DNA of 39,078 bases from a virus (taxonomy: Duplodnaviria > Heunggongvirae > Uroviricota > Caudoviricetes), in the IMG/VR virus record IMGVR_UViG_2711768071_000018; one strand, given 5' to 3'. Numbering within the stretch: position 1 is the first letter of the stretch; each line of letters opens with the position of its first letter. Of the stretch, positions 26,126 through 31,647 are shown piece after piece. The position numbers were made by a program, and so were the translations under genes. A model generated the notes under the pieces. That model was given only the letters and a program-made list of their open reading frames with translations, was not told the origin of the DNA and did no database searches.

Positions 26126-28037
26126 TCACTCCTCCGGACAGCTTCGCTGCCAGTTCTTTCAGGGTTGGCCGGGTCGTCTCTTCTTCCCGGGATTTTGCCA
26201 GTACAGCCAGATCAAGCTGCCAGCGTTGCACGGACACACGTAATGCCGCGTAGGCATACACCAGGCAGTCCAGCGCTTCGTTACGCCGCTTTTTGTTATC
26301 CCACAGCAGACGCATCTTTCCTTTTTCCCACTTCTCCACAAGCTCTTCCGCGACCAGTTGCTGCGCCTCTGTCTGCGAAAAAATCTCCGGATCATCAGGA
26401 AAACGGATGGCATACGACGTGGCTTCATCCGCAGGCGTGGGATCGGCTTTCATACGGGCATAGAGAATTTCTTTTGCGGTGTCCGTCCCCACTTCACACA
26501 GATACACGCCCCGCTGATTGCGGGTTTTCGGCATGGTGATCACCGGCTTGCCATAGACAGATGCGCCTTTTACCGGCAGCACCCGGAAAACACCGTGTTT
26601 TTTTGACCTCTGATAGACAATTTCACCATCGATCCCCCCGGTGTCCCAGCAGACACGGGAAATGGTCATTTCGGTGCCATCCGCATGGCGGTATTTTTTG
26701 TTGATCGCCGCATCCACACGTAACAGTGTCTCTTCCTCATCAGGACGCCCCATAATGATGATTTTATCCACCAGAAAGGCTTCCTCTCCCGGAGCCCATC
26801 CCCAGACATACATCTCAAAACGGTTTCGCTGCGAGTCAATGCCCGCCGTCAGATAAACCACCCGGGCAGGCACCGCCGCCGTGTAACGCTCCACCTTATC
26901 CATCAGTACCTGGTGATCGAGTTTTTCGCCCACGGCCTCTCCCCAGGTCTCGCCCAGCGTGGTGTTCACAAAGGTTTTCAGGCCGTTGGGATCTTTCAGT
27001 GCATCCAGCCAGTCATAGACAATCTGTACCCAGGTGGTGAACGGACTGTACGCCGTCCAGATATGGAACGTGATGGAGCGCGGCGGCGGAATTTCATCAC
27101 CCCGGGCGCTGAAAAACGTCAGACCGTCACGGGTCCACATGCCCGTGTTTTCACAGATCCACCGCCCGTTACTCTGGTCAAGCTCAGACTGATGGATCAC
27201 ACAGCCATGATGCTCACAAAGGTAGAAAACACTTTCTGGCTTATTCTTCTCCCACTTAAGACCGAAAGGCGAGGCATCATCGCCAAATTTCAGATACTGC
27301 TCCTCCCCACAGTGCGGACAGGGCACATAAAAACGCATGAAGTGTGCCGACTCGTTAGCGGCTTTTTCGATCTGGCAGGTGCCTTTGATTTTAGGCGTCG
27401 AGCCGCGAATGGATTTTGGCCACACCGACCCCTCAATACGCTTATCCCCCAGCAGGGTTGGCGAGCCCTCTTTTTCGACATCCGGCTCGAACGAGGAAAG
27501 TTCGTCATAGCAGACCACGTCCACGGATTTTTCACGGTAGTTTTTGGCGGCAGCGCCGCCCAGGCACCAGAAACCGACGCCCGATGAAAAGCGTTTCAGC
27601 GTGAGAGTATTGTCACGATGTTTACGACCCAGCCATGGGGAAAGGTCTTTCAGGCATGGCACGTTCCGAATCGTCGCCTCCACGTGAGACTTCATAAAAT
27701 CTTCAGCGGCAGAATCCGTGGGCTGAAAAAGCAGACTGTTTCGGGATTTATGCTCAATAAAATACCCGACCACCCCCAGCAACATCTTTGTATAGCCAAC
27801 ACGGGCAGATTTAATCAGGTTAACCGTGCGAACCTGGTCGTTACCCATACAGTTCATAATGGCGATCTGGAATGGCAGCGTTTTCCATTCTCCCTCACCA
27901 TATGAAGATTCTTTCGGCAGATAATAATTTTGATCAGCCCATTCAACTGGCGTCACCGGCAATGCCCTTATCAGGGGCTGTAATGCTGTTGTGACAGCGC
28001 TCATCATATTATTCAGTTGTTGCTCTGATATATTCAT
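26109..28037 (-). CDS. A: Terminase large subunit A
   Basis: Internal start MNISEQQLNN...; WADQNYYLPKES, KSARVGYTKMLLGV, FMRFYVPCPHCGEEQYLKFGD and WDTGGID all match lambda gpA. Confidence 0.9.
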   Translation of the reverse strand: MNISEQQLNNMMSAVTTALQPLIRALPVTPVEWADQNYYLPKESSYGEGEWKTLPFQIAIMNCMGNDQVRTVNLIKSARVGYTKMLLGVVGYFIEHKSRNSLLFQPTDSAAEDFMKSHVEATIRNVPCLKDLSPWLGRKHRDNTLTLKRFSSGVGFWCLGGAAAKNYREKSVDVVCYDELSSFEPDVEKEGSPTLLGDKRIEGSVWPKSIRGSTPKIKGTCQIEKAANESAHFMRFYVPCPHCGEEQYLKFGDDASPFGLKWEKNKPESVFYLCEHHGCVIHQSELDQSNGRWICENTGMWTRDGLTFFSARGDEIPPPRSITFHIWTAYSPFTTWVQIVYDWLDALKDPNGLKTFVNTTLGETWGEAVGEKLDHQVLMDKVERYTAAVPARVVYLTAGIDSQRNRFEMYVWGWAPGEEAFLVDKIIIMGRPDEEETLLRVDAAINKKYRHADGTEMTISRVCWDTGGIDGEIVYQRSKKHGVFRVLPVKGASVYGKPVITMPKTRNQRGVYLCEVGTDTAKEILYARMKADPTPADEATSYAIRFPDDPEIFSQTEAQQLVAEELVEKWEKGKMRLLWDNKKRRNEALDCLVYAYAALRVSVQRWQLDLAVLAKSREEETTRPTLKELAAKLSGGVNGYSR

Positions 28038-28518
28038 CGAGTAAATCCGGTAATTTATCCCCTGCCCGCGCACACTGATTTGCCCCCTTCGCAATAAGGG
28101 TTTTCAGATGGTCAAGATGGCGCGGTGTTAAATCAGGAAACTGTCGCTGCATGGATAAAGGGATGGAATCAAGCGTACTTGATAACGCCATTGCCAGCTT
28201 ACTGAGGGCAAAAATACAGAATCCGGTGTCAATCAGTTTTCCTTTTGACACCTCATTTTTTAGCTGCTGTGTAACAGCCTGTTCTGCTGTCAGTTCCCAT
28301 CTGGCAATAAGCAATTTCTCCTCATAGTCGTCTTCGCTATCGCCATCAGGCACATCGTTTTTACTTCTCCTCAGATACGATATGTAAAAATCGCGCCAGG
28401 CATCCAGATCCAGTTGCCCTCGCTTATTTGATATCGGGGCACCCGGCAATTTCTGCAATCTGCGAAGCTGGCGATCGGTCAGACTTAAATGCCTGGCAAC
28501 TTCAGTCTGCGTAGCCAC
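28009..28518 (-). CDS. Nu1: Terminase small subunit Nu1
   Basis: 169 aa; N-terminal helix-turn-helix and C-terminus ...LDSIPLSMQRQFPDLTPRHLDHLK... similar to lambda Nu1; start ~185 bp from cosN, as in lambda. Confidence 0.75.
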   Translation of the reverse strand: MATQTEVARHLSLTDRQLRRLQKLPGAPISNKRGQLDLDAWRDFYISYLRRSKNDVPDGDSEDDYEEKLLIARWELTAEQAVTQQLKNEVSKGKLIDTGFCIFALSKLAMALSSTLDSIPLSMQRQFPDLTPRHLDHLKTLIAKGANQCARAGDKLPDLLDEYIRATTE

Positions 28519-28689
28519 TCCTCACCTCGCAAAAACTCTCACCTCACAATTAGCACAAAACCGATCATGTCCGGTTTATATGTCCATTTTTTGCGCATGT
28601 CCGGTTCACGGAAAGCCCGTTCTTATATTTTTCATGTAGTTAACTTGCAGAGAAACCGGACATGGTTCCCGGAAAATTTTCATAAATAG

Positions 28690-28725
28690 CGAAAACCCGC
28701 GAGGTCGCCGCCCCGTAACCTGTCG
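28690..28725. other. cos site (cosN with the lambda 12-nt cohesive end GGGCGGCGACCT)
   Basis: Plus strand reads ...gaaaacccgcgaggtcgccgccccgtaacctgtcggatc..., the reverse complement of the lambda left end GGGCGGCGACCTCGCGGGTTTTCGC joined to the lambda right end; coordinates approximate. Confidence 0.75.
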
Positions 28726-28912
28726 GATCGCCGGAAAGGACCCGCAAAATGATAATAATTATCATCTACATGTCACAACGTGCATCTACGCCATCAAACC
28801 ACGTCAAATAATCAATTATGACGCAGGTATCGTATTAATTGATCTGCGTCAACTTAACGTAAAAACAACTTCAGACAATACAAATCAGCGACACTGAATA
28901 CGGGGCAACCTC

Positions 28913-29107
28913 ATGTCAACGAAGAACAGAACCCGCAGAACAACAACCCGCAACATCCGCTTTCCTAACCAAATGATTGAACAAATTAACATCGCTCTTG
29001 AGCAAAAAGGGTCTGGGAATTTCTCAGCCTGGGTCATTGAAGCCTGCCGTCGGAGACTAACGTCAGAAAAGAGAGCATATACATCAATCCAAAGTGATGA
29101 TGGATGA
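28913..29107 (+). CDS. Small cos-proximal protein (YlcI/DUF3950-like, possible ribbon-helix-helix)
   Basis: 64 aa, MSTKNRTRRTTTRNIRFPNQMIEQINIALEQKGSGNFSAWVIEACRRRL; the flanking DNA closely resembles the lambda right end as I remember it. Family assignment is from memory. Confidence 0.4.
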   Translation: MSTKNRTRRTTTRNIRFPNQMIEQINIALEQKGSGNFSAWVIEACRRRLTSEKRAYTSIQSDDG

Positions 29108-29294
29108 ACATCCCGGTTTCTTCCACCATCGCACCGGAAAAGCGACTATGAGGGTAACCCTGCGTCTGTCAGCACAGTAAAACCCGGTGTGCATCGTTTT
29201 TGATTATTCCCGCACACTCACGCAGAAGGAATTCCCCGTCGGGCTACGGTCATGGTTAATGCGGGAATACGGCGACGATACAGCGCATAATGTG

Positions 29295-29843
29295 TCAGGC
29301 TTGAATACCTTTATCGAATCCCGGTAATAAAAACTGTCCCTGTCTCTCCAGACGTTCCAGCTTTGCAAGCAATTGAGGTTTTTTCGTTCTCCCCCAGCGA
29401 TTGAGCAGACGGCCTGACATGCTGGCGACATCCTTCTCTTTCATGTACTCCAGCATTACGGCGTTACGTTCTGCTTCATAACTTTCGCTGTACTTACGGA
29501 GTTCTGCTGACATCCAGTTAAACGCATTGATATAGGCTTCTTTAACAGCATCGGCTTTTGCCCCGTTAAATCCCATAACCAGCATAACGAAGCCACTAAA
29601 GTCCATGCGGTAGTAAATCTGTTTCTTGTCAAAAATACCTAAGTCATTGATTTTCTCGACGGCCCAAAAATGGGTTGTCGAGAATTCCTCAGAACATCTC
29701 AAACATTTAATAGCCCTAATCACATGCTGATGGCGTTTACCAAATGCCCTGGCAATCTGGAAGGTGTCAGTTACCGGTTGACCTTCTGCTGCGGTAACTA
29801 ACTGGCGAAAGTCGAAGTCATGATTCGCAATTAATTCATTCAT
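29295..29843 (-). CDS. Rha-family phage regulatory protein
   Basis: Internal start MNELIANHDF...; ...QPVTDTFQIARAFGKRHQHVIRAI... and ...GFVMLVMGFNGAKADAVKEAYINAFNWM fit the Rha family pattern. Confidence 0.6.
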   Translation of the reverse strand: MNELIANHDFDFRQLVTAAEGQPVTDTFQIARAFGKRHQHVIRAIKCLRCSEEFSTTHFWAVEKINDLGIFDKKQIYYRMDFSGFVMLVMGFNGAKADAVKEAYINAFNWMSAELRKYSESYEAERNAVMLEYMKEKDVASMSGRLLNRWGRTKKPQLLAKLERLERQGQFLLPGFDKGIQA

Positions 29844-29995
29844 GGCGTTGCCTGCTTCTTTGAAATGAACCTTTGCCGCATAGGAAACCAGCCCACCGAG
29901 GCTCGCCAGCACTAACTGGTATCCTCAAAGGCCCATTCCAAAGGGTCAGGTTCGGTGTTTATTGTGCGCTGCGGTGCGCGGTGAAATACCGGTAC

Positions 29996-30024
29996 AAAAA
30001 TGCCCCGCATCTGCGAGGCATTTT
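29996..30024 (-). terminator. Hairpin terminator downstream of Rz/Rz1
   Basis: aaaatgccccgcatctgcgaggcatttt: imperfect GC stem flanked by A-run and T-run; coordinates approximate. Confidence 0.4.
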
Positions 30025-30061
30025 CCTGAAAGTCACTTGTTAAATTTCAGTGAAATTAAAA

Positions 30062-30499
30062 TTATTTTAAGCACTGCGTCCTGATGTATTCCTGCAGGTA
30101 GTTAACCTGCGCGGTTATCTTGTCGATTCCACCTCGGAGACGGTAATAATTGAGTTCAGCATCTGCTGTAAGTCCTGGGCTTTCTCCATCGCCCATGCTG
30201 CTGGCTCCGGTCGTTGACTTTGCACAGGTGGCGGAGACTTGCAGGCGCTTACGCCCAGCAGAAACATCAGCACGGAGACTTTCGATAGTCGCATTAGCAT
30301 CAGCAAGCTCCTTTGTGTATCTGGCGTCAAGTTCTGCTACATCACGTTGCCGCTTCTGCATATCAGCGATGATGGATGTGGCTTTATCGCGCTGCTCTTT
30401 GTAGGCGATGGCGTTATCACGGTAATGATTAACAGCCCATGACAGGCAGGCGATAATGCAGATAACCAGAGCGGAGATAATAACGGTTACCCTGCTCAT
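30062..30499 (-). CDS. Rz: Rz i-spanin (inner-membrane spanin subunit)
   Basis: Start [30 protein letters not shown] matches lambda Rz; overlaps the R stop (ATGA). Confidence 0.85.
30115..30330 (-). CDS. Rz1: Rz1 o-spanin lipoprotein, embedded in the +1 frame of Rz
   Basis: ORF wholly inside Rz; signal peptide with lipobox ...[10 protein letters not shown], then a Pro-rich stretch [13 protein letters not shown]; exact start uncertain. Confidence 0.6.
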
Positions 30500-30993
30500 T
30501 GTTGCCCCCACAAACAGACTTCACGCTCAATCTCGCGGCGAGTCATCAGCCCTTTCCATTGCTTACCGCCAGCGTATGTCCAGCGCCGTAGCTGATCACA
30601 TGCGCTTTTGATATCGCCCTGGTTTATTTTGCGAAGAAGCGTCGATGTTCTGAAATTGCCAGCGCCCACGTTGTAAACGAACGAGTAAAGAGCGCCGCGC
30701 GTTGTTTCCGGTATATCGACGTTGATGTACGGGTTAATTTGTCTGGCGACCGTGGCAAGGTCTTTATTCAGGAGGGCTTTGCATTCTGCTTCGGTATACG
30801 TTTTACCGGGCATGATGTCTTTTCCGGTGTGTCCGTGACATACAGTCCATACGCCAACGATATCTTTGTATGGTATGTAGCTGACACCTTCCAGACCATC
30901 GTTACCACCTGGACCAGTGATGAGCACAGACGCTATGGCAACAGCCCCACCACCAATAGCAGCTGCAACAGCCTTGCGTAATGACGGCGACAT
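30496..30993 (-). CDS. R: SAR endolysin R (phage-21-type lysozyme)
   Basis: 165 aa; Gly/Ala-rich N-terminal SAR segment [20 protein letters not shown]; ...[27 protein letters not shown]...[33 protein letters not shown] matches remembered P21 R. Confidence 0.85.
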
Positions 30994-31199
30994 TATTCAC
31001 CTCTCGCAGCCTTACGCTTATCTTCTTTAATCTTGAAATAAAGATTTGTCAGATACGTCAGCAGGCCAAACAGCAGACTTCCCAGCACACCTATTGCCAC
31101 CCACTGGGACGGAGAGACTTTGTCCAGCAGCTGCAGTAACCAGTATCCCGTCCCCACCGCTGACGTGGTGTATGACACACCTGTTGTGATTTTTTCCAT
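30993..31199 (-). CDS. S: Pinholin S (phage-21 S21-type class II holin)
   Basis: 68 aa; ...[51 protein letters not shown] matches remembered S21. Confidence 0.8.
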
Positions 31200-31243
31200 C
31201 TGATGTATGTCTCCGTCACCGCCGACAGAAAATGAAAGTAAAG

Positions 31244-31280
31244 AAAAACAAAAAAGCCGCCAGTGTCACCCACTGACGGC
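31244..31280 (-). terminator. Rho-independent terminator ~45 nt upstream of S
   Basis: Hairpin gccgtcagtgggtgacactggcggc followed by ttttttgtttttc on the minus strand; coordinates approximate. Confidence 0.5.
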
Positions 31281-31377
31281 CAACGCCGGGAGCCGTGATT
31301 ATGGCATTCAGGCTCTGCTAAAAATGCCAGATAACATTCCGGCCTCCCCTGATTCAGGTTATAAATGACACAATATC

Positions 31378-31497
31378 TTGACAACATCCGTCACTGTCTG
31401 TCAGAAAATGTACTGCCATATAGAAGCAACATGTGAAGTACATCTATCCTTTTGAGCCAGCACCTCTCCACCGAAAGTCAGTGCTGGCTGTTTTTTC
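31378..31497 (+). promoter_or_regulatory. Candidate small transcription unit 1 (TTGACA-like box to hairpin/T-tract), antisense to the late operon
   Basis: ttgacaacatccgtcactgtctgtcagaaaatg ... agccagcacctctccaccgaaagtcagtgctggct + gttttttcc; no ORF of 60 aa or more. Confidence 0.25.
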
Positions 31498-31544
31498 CTT
31501 AATAAGGCATCTGTAACTGAAACAATCCGCATATTGATAATATA

Positions 31545-31647
31545 TTGACAGGCATCATTGCTGTCTGTGAAAAATAAGTCTCTACAAACATATAAGGCCT
31601 TTTAGCCAGCGTCTTCTTTTTCAGGTCAGTCGCTGGCTTTTTTTATT
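31545..31647 (+). promoter_or_regulatory. Candidate small transcription unit 2 (similar copy of unit 1)
   Basis: ttgacaggcatcattgctgtctgtgaaaaataag ... agccagcgtcttctttttcaggtcagtcgctggct + ttttttatta; same layout and similar stem as unit 1. Confidence 0.25.

What the first reader, a model, noticed from the sequence alone, without database searches (positions are those of the whole stretch)
31378..31647. Tandem pair of promoter-like / hairpin-terminator units on the plus strand, antisense to the late operon, just upstream of the lysis cassette
Between nanS-p and S there are no ORFs of 60 aa or more, but two similar ~110-bp units: each starts with a TTGACA box and a shared ctgtctgt motif and ends ~70 nt later in a GC hairpin (agccagc...gctggct) followed by a T-run on the plus strand. 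Their orientation opposes the surrounding late genes, and on the minus strand the hairpins are not followed by T-runs. They could encode a duplicated small RNA that meets late transcription head-on just before the holin gene, or short peptides (a 15-codon ATG ORF sits in unit 1). A separate minus-strand terminator (31244-31280) lies ~45 nt before S.
Basis: seen in the sequence. Interest (0 to 1): 0.55.

Follow-up and report, generated by a model that had tools for sequence, protein, structure and literature searches.

The report
Known prophage small-RNA genes PasA and EcOnc51/52
The two look-alike promoter-to-terminator units between the sialate esterase gene and the lysis genes are real.

Summary
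Two collinear, paralogous units lie on the + strand at 31378-31496 and 31545-31645. Each has a perfect TTGACA box, then 10 nt, then CTGTCTGT, an A-rich -10-like stretch, a short body, and an AGCCAGC/GCTGGCT hairpin followed by a T-run.

The intergenic region is identical, apart from one T, to the pasA locus of EPEC E2348/69. The published PasA Northern probe matches 31464-31488 exactly. PasA (major form 85 nt in E2348/69, Hfq-stabilised) maps to 31413-31496. Its minor 236-nt form ends at the unit-2 terminator, at about 31647.

After I calibrated the Sakai genome-version offset, the Hfq-CRAC peaks EcOnc51 and EcOnc52 (Tree 2014) both map to unit 2, at about 31578-31650. RIL-seq also recovered unit 2 as an sRNA-like partner, for example of escD.

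Both mapped 5' ends lie 27-30 nt after the TTGACA boxes, which fits each unit having its own promoter. The 15-codon ORF is rejected.

There is no Rfam family for these units, and their cellular function is unpublished. One minor new point: the single-unit PasC locus looks like unit 1's promoter and 5' body fused to a unit-2-type terminator.

Verdict: a real feature, already known, of low interest.

The parts
31378..31383 (+). Perfect -35 box (TTGACA) of unit 1
   Evidence: It is invariant across 23 distinct two-unit loci, while the transcribed 5' body next to it varies.
31394..31409 (+). Shared CTGTCTGT motif plus an A-rich -10-like stretch of unit 1 (TCAGAA at 17-nt spacing, or GAAAAT at 20-nt spacing)
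   Evidence: Only a weak match to TATAAT, and not called by the scanner. Its role as a -10 element is inferred.
31413..31496 (+). PasA sRNA, major form (84 nt here, 85 nt in E2348/69)
   Evidence: E2348/69 coordinates 743499-743415 (table S6 of PMC8550237) were mapped through alignment A1. The Northern probe matches 31464-31488 exactly.
31456..31465 (+). Published PasA seed GCCAGCACCU, which overlaps the 5' arm of the terminator stem
   Evidence: Fig. S5 text of PMC8550237. Noted as unusual by Zhu et al..
31455..31496 (+). Intrinsic terminator T1 and likely Hfq-binding 3' module (9-bp stem, 17-nt loop, G plus U6)
   Evidence: Compensatory changes occur in the stem across variants. Annotated as a terminator in phage 434.
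31545..31550 (+). Perfect -35 box (TTGACA) of unit 2
   Evidence: Conserved in the IS629-truncated Sp4 copy and in the plasmid-borne copy.
31561..31575 (+). Shared CTGTCTGT motif plus an A-rich -10-like stretch of unit 2 (TGAAAA at 17-nt spacing, or AAAAAT at 19-nt spacing)
   Evidence: Its role as a -10 element is inferred.
31578..31647 (+). Unit-2 sRNA, equal to EcOnc51/EcOnc52 of EHEC Sakai (about 68-70 nt). It is also the 3' part of the 236-nt PasA read-through form.
   Evidence: EcOnc coordinates come from Tree 2014 table S2 and were re-mapped with calibrated genome-version offsets. RIL-seq entry pasA.E2348C_0688.IGR includes an escD chimera that maps to 31617-31644. Fold z-score -4.45.
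31604..31645 (+). Intrinsic terminator T2 (8 bp, a mismatch, then 2 bp, followed by U7). It directly abuts the nanS-p stop codon.
   Evidence: Annotated as a terminator in phage 434.
31413..31647 (+). Minor 236-nt PasA isoform (reads through T1 and ends at T2)
   Evidence: Table S6 of PMC8550237 gives the minor end at 743264, mapped through alignment A1.
31245..31281 (-). Late-strand intrinsic terminator 45 nt upstream of S (context, not part of the sRNA genes)
30993..31199 (-). Phage-21-type class II holin S (flanking gene)
   Evidence: Pfam PF04971, E = 1.2e-32.
31646..33496 (-). nanS-p / SASA sialate O-acetylesterase gene (flanking gene). In this window it is interrupted by an in-frame TAG at 32954-32956.

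Best explanation
The region holds two tandem, paralogous genes for Hfq-binding small RNAs of lambdoid prophages. They are transcribed convergently to the late (lysis) operon.

Unit 1 is pasA. It most likely starts about 30 nt downstream of the TTGACA box and gives an 84-nt RNA (31413-31496). This RNA ends at an intrinsic terminator whose stem-loop and U-tail bind Hfq, and the 5' arm of that stem carries the published seed.

Unit 2 is built the same way, with a shorter and different 5' body, and gives the roughly 68-nt RNA known as EcOnc51/52. Some PasA transcripts read through terminator 1 and stop at terminator 2, which gives the 236-nt minor form. Terminator 2 sits exactly at the nanS-p stop codon, so antisense transcription does not enter that gene.

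Both RNAs act in the lysogen as trans-acting, Hfq-dependent base-pairing regulators of core and virulence mRNAs.

Shown (published, on a sequence that differs from the window only by one extra T in the terminator U-run): the existence, size and strand of PasA, its Hfq dependence, and its RIL-seq partners.

Inferred here: each unit has its own promoter, unit 2 is an independent gene, and the units arose by tandem duplication. The physiological role has not been established.
For: - Window 31200-31700 equals the E2348/69 PP2 pasA locus except for one T.
- The PasA probe matches exactly on the strand that detects a + strand RNA.
- PasA is reduced in the hfq deletion strain (log2 fold change -2.8). 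It ranks 12th by number of RIL-seq interactions, and its targets include ftsB, frr and the 3' end of the esterase mRNA.
- The synteny esterase-pasA-holin-lysozyme is as described by Zhu et al..
- The window's intergenic region is 99.2% identical to phage YYZ-2008, their reference PasA phage.
- EcOnc51 and EcOnc52 map to unit 2 after offset calibration, with the 5' boundary at 31577-31579.
- Unit 2 appears only as the second (sRNA-type) RNA in RIL-seq chimeras.
- The mapped 5' ends lie 30 nt and 27-29 nt after the -35 boxes.
- The promoter-like and terminator segments are conserved while the 5' body varies.
- The terminator stems show compensatory changes.
- Unit 1 has 2849 places in 692 of 5426 complete E. 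coli genomes. Unit 2 has 2304 places in 677 genomes.
Against: - The -10 elements are weak, or else lie at non-canonical 19-20 nt spacing. The consensus scanner called no promoter here.
- Zhu et al. state that Northern data suggest the PasA 5' end arises by cleavage of a longer transcript.
- EcOnc51/52 reads cannot be assigned to one copy, and they could come from the 3' part of read-through PasA transcripts.
- No TSS (TEX or Cappable-seq) data could be consulted.
- The fold of PasA as a whole is not exceptional (z = -1.6).
Confidence: 0.85

Rival explanations
1. There is only one gene, pasA. Unit 2 is not transcribed on its own. It is a back-up terminator and the 3' extension of read-through PasA, and the roughly 68-nt Hfq-bound species is a processing product of the 236-nt form.
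For: Pearl Mizrahi et al. list unit 2 as the minor 236-nt end of PasA and treat both entries as one sRNA. Unit 2 is nearly invariant, so it gives little evolutionary signal of its own. Its -10 element is weak.
Against: Unit 2 repeats the whole promoter-like layout: TTGACA, 10 nt, CTGTCTGT, then an A-rich stretch. The EcOnc51/52 5' boundary falls 27-29 nt after that box. That layout stays intact in copies cut off from unit 1 by IS629 (Sp4) and in about 100 plasmid-borne copies that have diverged about 10%.
Confidence: 0.2
2. The main role is in cis. Convergent transcription, or the antisense RNAs themselves, interfere with late transcripts that run from nanS-p into S. This would damp leaky lysis-gene expression in lysogens or set lysis timing, in the manner of lambda OOP or anti-Q antisense RNAs.
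For: Both RNAs are fully complementary to the nanS-p-to-S stretch of the late transcript. The position next to the holin gene is conserved. Analogous antisense modules occur in unrelated intergenic-region types upstream of the same holin. RIL-seq recovers PasA chimeras with the esterase mRNA 3' end.
Against: No experiment bears on this. The 5' bodies vary between prophages together with their own antisense target, so this variation says nothing either way. Most published partners are trans targets in the core genome and the LEE. Unit 2 persists on plasmids and next to IS elements without any lysis genes.
Confidence: 0.12
3. The units encode short peptides, for example the 15-codon ORF at 31409-31456.
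For: The ORF exists.
Against: Its ATG lies 4 nt upstream of the mapped 5' end. The ATG is ATA in the common PasA-2 variant. I saw no Shine-Dalgarno sequence by eye. Unit 2 has no counterpart ORF.
Confidence: 0.02
4. The hairpins are merely terminators for the flanking genes and the TTGACA boxes are chance matches.
For: Phage 434 annotators labelled them only as terminators.
Against: The T-runs are on the + strand only, and no + strand gene lies upstream of them. The motif pair is far above chance. Discrete Hfq-bound RNAs have been detected experimentally.
Confidence: 0.01

Closest known systems
PasA (pathogenicity-associated sRNA A) of EPEC E2348/69 prophage PP2 (Pearl Mizrahi et al. 2021, PMC8550237; Zhu, Shabalina and Storz 2026, bioRxiv 10.64898/2026.05.13.724894)
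   Same: Unit 1 has the same sequence apart from one U in the tail. It has the same strand, the same flanking genes (esterase and holin), the same terminator and the same seed.
   Different: Nothing of substance. The window's nanS-p carries an in-frame stop, and the prophage backbone is a different mosaic.
EcOnc51 / EcOnc52, orphan Hfq-binding sites of EHEC Sakai prophages Sp12 and Sp4 (Tree et al. 2014, PMC4104026)
   Same: After version-offset calibration, both peaks cover the Sakai counterpart of unit 2, from about 28 nt after the TTGACA box to just past the T-run. The sequence differs from the window only by loop and T-run indels.
   Different: They are known only as CRAC peaks. They were never characterised, and published coordinates refer to the older NC_002695.1. 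The published note treats them as 'homologues of PasA', not as the downstream twin.
PasC of E2348/69 prophage PP5
   Same: Same promoter-like region as unit 1, a unit-1-type 5' body, and the same position against the esterase stop codon.
   Different: It is a single-unit locus. Its terminator is of the unit-2 type (G-C at stem pair 8, and a loop also found on a unit 2 in IMG/VR locus L146). It therefore looks like a unit1/unit2 recombinant, or like the unduplicated ancestor.
AgvB / AsxR anti-sRNAs (Rfam RF02702, RF02703)
   Same: They are short Hfq-bound prophage sRNAs transcribed against the late operon. They have conserved 3' terminators and variable 5' seeds.
   Different: They lie at a different site, between the moron and nanS-p rather than between nanS-p and S. 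There is no sequence or model match. A sponge function has not been shown for PasA.
HnrS (EcOnc10/11/12), a multicopy 66-nt prophage sRNA that represses hha (PMC13502914)
   Same: It is a multicopy, Hfq-bound sRNA in the late region of the same prophages, and is enriched in LEE-positive strains.
   Different: It is a different gene, located downstream of Rz. It is absent from this window.
Lambda OOP and anti-Q (paQ) antisense RNAs
   Same: They are short phage RNAs transcribed against an operon of the same phage.
   Different: They act in cis on cII or Q. No such action has been shown here. This comparison rests on general knowledge, not on a test.

Membership tests
PasA/PasC sRNA family | Sequence match to E2348/69 PasA, including its Northern probe | tested here: met
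   Alignment A1 shows identity across 31413-31496 except for one T. The probe matches exactly at 31464-31488.
PasA/PasC sRNA family | Synteny: lies between the sialate esterase gene and the holin-lysozyme genes, on the opposite strand | tested here: met
   compared with the description.
PasA/PasC sRNA family | A 3' stem-loop followed by poly-U (intrinsic terminator and Hfq module) | tested here: met
   Compensatory changes occur at 3 of 9 stem pairs.
PasA/PasC sRNA family | Conserved seed GCCAGCACCU | tested here: met
   Present at 31456-31465. It is unchanged in the common unit-1 variants. One rare variant has GCCAGUACUU with a compensating change on the other stem arm.
PasA/PasC sRNA family | Expressed as a discrete Hfq-stabilised RNA | not testable with these tools
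   Published for E2348/69, whose sequence differs from the window only by one extra T in the terminator U-run.
EcOnc51/52 (for unit 2) | Published peak coordinates fall on the homologous sequence | tested here: met
   The offset from NC_002695.1 to NC_002695.2 was measured as about +137 at Sp5, Sp10 and Sp12, and 0 at Sp4. With these offsets the peaks fall at 2237616-2237693 and 1181998-1182075. The unit-2 homologues lie at 2237616-2237686 and 1182007-1182077.
Independent sRNA gene (for unit 2) | Its own transcription start | tested here: inconclusive
   The promoter-like layout is duplicated, and the CRAC 5' boundary fits it. However, no primary-5'-end data were available, and CRAC reads multi-map.
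AgvB/AsxR anti-sRNAs | Match to Rfam RF02702 or RF02703 | tested here: not met
   No hit at the gathering threshold or at E <= 10. The same models do find AgvB and AsxR in Sakai.
STnc100/PasD | Match to Rfam RF02076 | tested here: not met
   The units do not match it. A separate STnc100-family element lies at 33634-33806 on the minus strand.

The most novel reading that the evidence does not exclude
The locus is a two-gene array, not one gene with a long isoform. Unit 2 would be an independently transcribed third paralogue of the PasA/PasC family, with its own 5' seed region. PasC-type single-unit loci would arise by recombination between the two units. Unrelated intergenic regions upstream of the same holin carry analogous single or tandem antisense modules, so the nanS-p/S junction would be a general insertion and shuffling site for modular sRNA genes. 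These genes would share a conserved promoter and terminator and carry exchangeable seeds, and they might also act in cis on lysis-gene transcripts.
Probability: 0.5. Interest if true: 0.3.

Novelty: already known. Interest (0 to 1): 0.18.

Why it matters
Prophage-encoded sRNAs such as PasA link carriage of Stx-type prophages to post-transcriptional control of host and virulence genes. PasA is one of the best-connected accessory sRNAs in EPEC, yet its function has not been established.

For this scan, the result shows that reading the sequence alone found a genuine sRNA locus that has experimental backing.

Three small additions could help people working on Pas sRNAs:
- EcOnc51/52 correspond to the downstream twin unit rather than to PasA proper.
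- Both mapped 5' ends sit at promoter distance from perfect -35 boxes. This argues against the published suggestion that the PasA 5' end arises by processing.
- PasC looks like a fusion of unit 1 and unit 2.

None of this changes the classification.

Tried and rejected
- **Rfam:** searches at the gathering threshold and at E <= 10 gave only noise over the units.
- **Peptide reading:** rejected.
- **RNAduplex:** unrestricted RNAduplex of PasA or unit 2 against the esterase mRNA 3' end was uninformative, because shuffled targets scored similarly for PasA.
- **Whole-window annotation:** I tried to borrow it from strain 2013C-3264, but only 30383-34867 is collinear with that genome. No complete E. 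coli genome holds this exact mosaic.
- **TSS data for EHEC:** the supplements of Sy et al. 2020 are not held. I did not pursue the EDL933 Cappable-seq tables.
- **HnrS:** I checked whether the multicopy 66-nt sRNA HnrS was unit 2. It is EcOnc10-12, a different gene, and is absent from the window.
- **PasD:** its probe is absent from the window.
- **EcOnc51 mapping:** my first naive mapping of EcOnc51 onto unit 1 was wrong. Published coordinates refer to the older genome version, and I corrected this by calibration.

Full report
**Context.** On the minus strand the window carries, in order:
- a lambdoid late region: DUF968, RusA and a Q-type antiterminator (36518-37060);
- a DNA methylase and two tRNAs;
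- an STnc100-family sRNA (33634-33806);
- the nanS-p/SASA esterase gene (31646-33496);
- a 446-nt intergenic region;
- the phage-21-type holin S (30993-31199), the endolysin, Rz, a Rha-like gene and the terminase.

The finding lies in the intergenic region, on the opposite strand.

**Observation.** Both hairpins and their + strand T-runs are present:
- hairpin 1: 31455-63/31481-89, then G plus T6;
- hairpin 2: 31604-14/31628-38, then T7.

The shared stem motif occurs twice against 0.01 expected. The composite TTGACA-N10-CTGTCTGT motif occurs twice, exactly, against 0.24 expected even with two mismatches allowed. The two units align collinearly block by block: AATAT-TTGACA, CTGTCTGT, an A-run, CCTTTT-AGCCAGC, and GTCAGT-GCTGGCT-T-run. 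The best local segment beats 2000 of 2000 shuffles.

On the minus strand the hairpins are followed by AAAAGG. The late-strand terminator 45 nt before S is confirmed. The unit-2 RNA folds much better than shuffles (z = -4.45). PasA as a whole does not (z = -1.6).

**Identity of unit 1.** The intergenic region occurs in 699 of 5426 complete E. coli genomes, with a median of 6 places per genome. It also occurs in Stx1a phages, phage YYZ-2008 and phage 434, where curators marked both hairpins as terminators.

Pearl Mizrahi et al. 2021 (PMC8550237) described five prophage sRNAs of EPEC E2348/69. Their table S6 gives the following for PasA:
- coordinates NC_011601.1, minus strand, 743499 to 743415 (major form, 85 nt) or to 743264 (minor form, 236 nt);
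- flanked by E2348C_0688 and E2348C_0689;
- Northern probe GCCAGCACTGACTTTCGGTGGAGAG.

That probe matches the window exactly at 31464-31488, in the orientation that detects a + strand RNA. Window 31200-31700 is identical to the E2348/69 locus except for one T in the first T-run. Mapped through that alignment, PasA is 31413-31496, and the minor form ends at about 31647, which is the unit-2 terminator.

PasA is depleted in the hfq deletion strain. It ranks 12th by number of RIL-seq interactions. Its published seed is GCCAGCACCU (31456-31465), on the 5' arm of the terminator. Its listed targets include ftsB, frr and the 3' end of the esterase mRNA.

Zhu, Shabalina and Storz (bioRxiv 2026) describe the esterase-pasA-holin-lysozyme synteny and name YYZ-2008 as the reference PasA phage. 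They state that the function of the Pas sRNAs has not been elucidated. Rfam 15 has no model for PasA.

**Identity of unit 2.** Table S6 lists a second automatic entry for the same sRNA, pasA.E2348C_0688.IGR, and notes EHEC homologues EcOnc51/EcOnc52. In RIL-seq that entry appears only as the second, sRNA-type partner. One of its chimeras, with escD, maps to window 31617-31644.

Tree et al. 2014 list two peaks, both flagged as having a terminator and with nearly equal read totals:
- EcOnc51: Sp12, 2237479-2237555, + strand;
- EcOnc52: Sp4, 1181998-1182075, minus strand.

Those coordinates refer to NC_002695.1, whereas the tool holds NC_002695.2. I calibrated the offset in four ways:
- Rfam places AsxR at +135 to +139 and AgvB at +137 to +146 relative to the published peaks.
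- The 282-bp distance of AsxR from stx2B is reproduced only with this offset.
- The identical sRNAs EcOnc10 and EcOnc11 give about +137 at Sp12.
- The EcOnc08/21/42 probe shows an offset of 0 at Sp4.

With these offsets both peaks fall on the Sakai counterpart of unit 2:
- EcOnc51: 2237616-2237693, against the unit-2 homologue at 2237616-2237686;
- EcOnc52: 1181998-1182075, against the unit-2 homologue at 1182007-1182077.

Their 5' boundaries correspond to window 31577-31579. In Sp4 an IS629 element sits 24 nt upstream of the unit-2 TTGACA box, and unit 1 is not adjacent. Because the unit-2 sequences in Sp4 and Sp12 are identical, reads cannot be assigned to one copy. This shows a discrete Hfq-bound RNA, but it does not prove a separate promoter.

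**Promoters.** The PasA 5' end (31413) lies 30 nt after the last base of TTGACA (31383). This is the canonical distance from a -35 box to +1. The unit-2 boundary lies 27-29 nt after its box.

The -10 candidates are weak:
- at 17-nt spacing, TCAGAA and TGAAAA;
- at 20- and 19-nt spacing, GAAAAT and AAAAAT.

The scanner called neither unit.

Across 23 distinct two-unit loci, anchored on flanking sequence rather than on the motifs, the promoter-like segments and terminators are almost invariant. Variation is concentrated in the unit-1 5' body (31407-31450), where it forms the PasA and PasA-2 haplotypes. The loci themselves were collected partly by a motif scan. Plasmid-borne copies of unit 2 are about 10% diverged but keep the box and the spacer intact.

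I therefore consider that each unit most likely has its own promoter. The published remark that the PasA 5' end may arise by cleavage stands against this.

**Structure and evolution.** Across unit-1, unit-2 and PasC-type terminators the 9-bp stem keeps 95% standard pairs. Changes on both sides occur at three pairs, for example A-U to G-C at pair 8 and C-G to U-A at pair 7.

The PasC locus of E2348/69 has a single unit. It has:
- unit 1's promoter-like region and a unit-1-type body;
- a terminator with the unit-2 stem;
- the esterase stop codon directly after it.

The PasC loop type also occurs on the unit 2 of one two-unit locus, L146. PasC is therefore either a deletion by recombination between the two units, or the unduplicated ancestor. 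The direction cannot be decided here. In IMG/VR fragments of this intergenic-region type, two-unit loci outnumber single-unit loci 82 to 19, though these counts are redundant.

**Rejected readings.** The 15-codon ORF starts upstream of the mapped 5' end, and its ATG is lost in PasA-2. A role only as gene terminators does not fit the strand of the T-runs or the detected RNAs. A cis-antisense role against the late transcript is possible but untested. Most published partners are in trans.

**Verdict.** Novelty: already known. Interest is low. The only increments are the assignment of EcOnc51/52 to the downstream twin, the promoter-distance argument, and the fusion-like nature of PasC.

Noticed in passing
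window 33634-33806 (-): An STnc100-family sRNA (Rfam RF02076, 101.5 bits) lies just upstream of nanS-p, where PasD sits in E2348/69. The PasD Northern probe is absent from the window, so this is an STnc100-type relative rather than a PasD-type one.
   Followed up: partly
window 32954-32956 (-): The nanS-p/SASA esterase gene has an in-frame TAG. This splits it into a 180-aa DUF1737 part and a 415-aa SASA/DUF6645 part. The two nearby phage tRNAs are Arg(UCU) and Met/Ile(CAU), not suppressors.
   Followed up: partly
L019, L046, L073 (IMG/VR), upstream of the holin: Unrelated intergenic-region types upstream of the same phage-21-type holin carry analogous antisense modules, each a TTGACA box followed by a hairpin and T-run. 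L019 and L046 have one module and L073 has two in tandem. In L019 and L046 the terminator abuts an esterase 3'-end remnant (ATTATGCTGC / ATTATGATG); in L073 the second terminator abuts ATCATGCCGC, which only loosely resembles it. L019 also contains the PasD probe sequence about 190 nt beyond that remnant.
   Followed up: partly
L007 (plasmid NZ_CP027220.1) 2470-2680, and about 100 other plasmid places: Unit 2 occurs alone on roughly 90-kb E. coli plasmids, with an 87-bp esterase remnant, next to uilS and IS600/IS66. It is about 90% identical to the window, with the promoter-like layout intact.
   Followed up: partly
NC_002695.2 against published NC_002695.1 coordinates: Coordinates of EcOnc sRNAs in Tree et al. 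2014 are shifted by about +137 nt in the current Sakai RefSeq record from somewhere between 1.18 and 1.27 Mb onwards. At Sp4 the shift is 0. Naive look-ups therefore land on the wrong feature.
   Followed up: yes
window 31255-31281 and 31326-31343 (-): Two terminator-like hairpins lie on the late strand between nanS-p and S. The first is strong and sits 45 nt before the S start codon. Late transcripts would need Q-modified polymerase to reach the lysis genes.
   Followed up: no
window 27000-37000: The prophage is a mosaic. No complete E. coli genome in the collection covers more than 80% of this stretch. Only 30383-34867 is collinear (96.7%) with the genome that matches the intergenic region perfectly.
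   Followed up: partly
window 31400-31418 (-): RIL-seq in E2348/69 recovered a late-strand fragment opposite the PasA 5' end, in chimeras with PasB. This means that some transcription of the sense strand crosses this intergenic region in lysogens.
   Followed up: no
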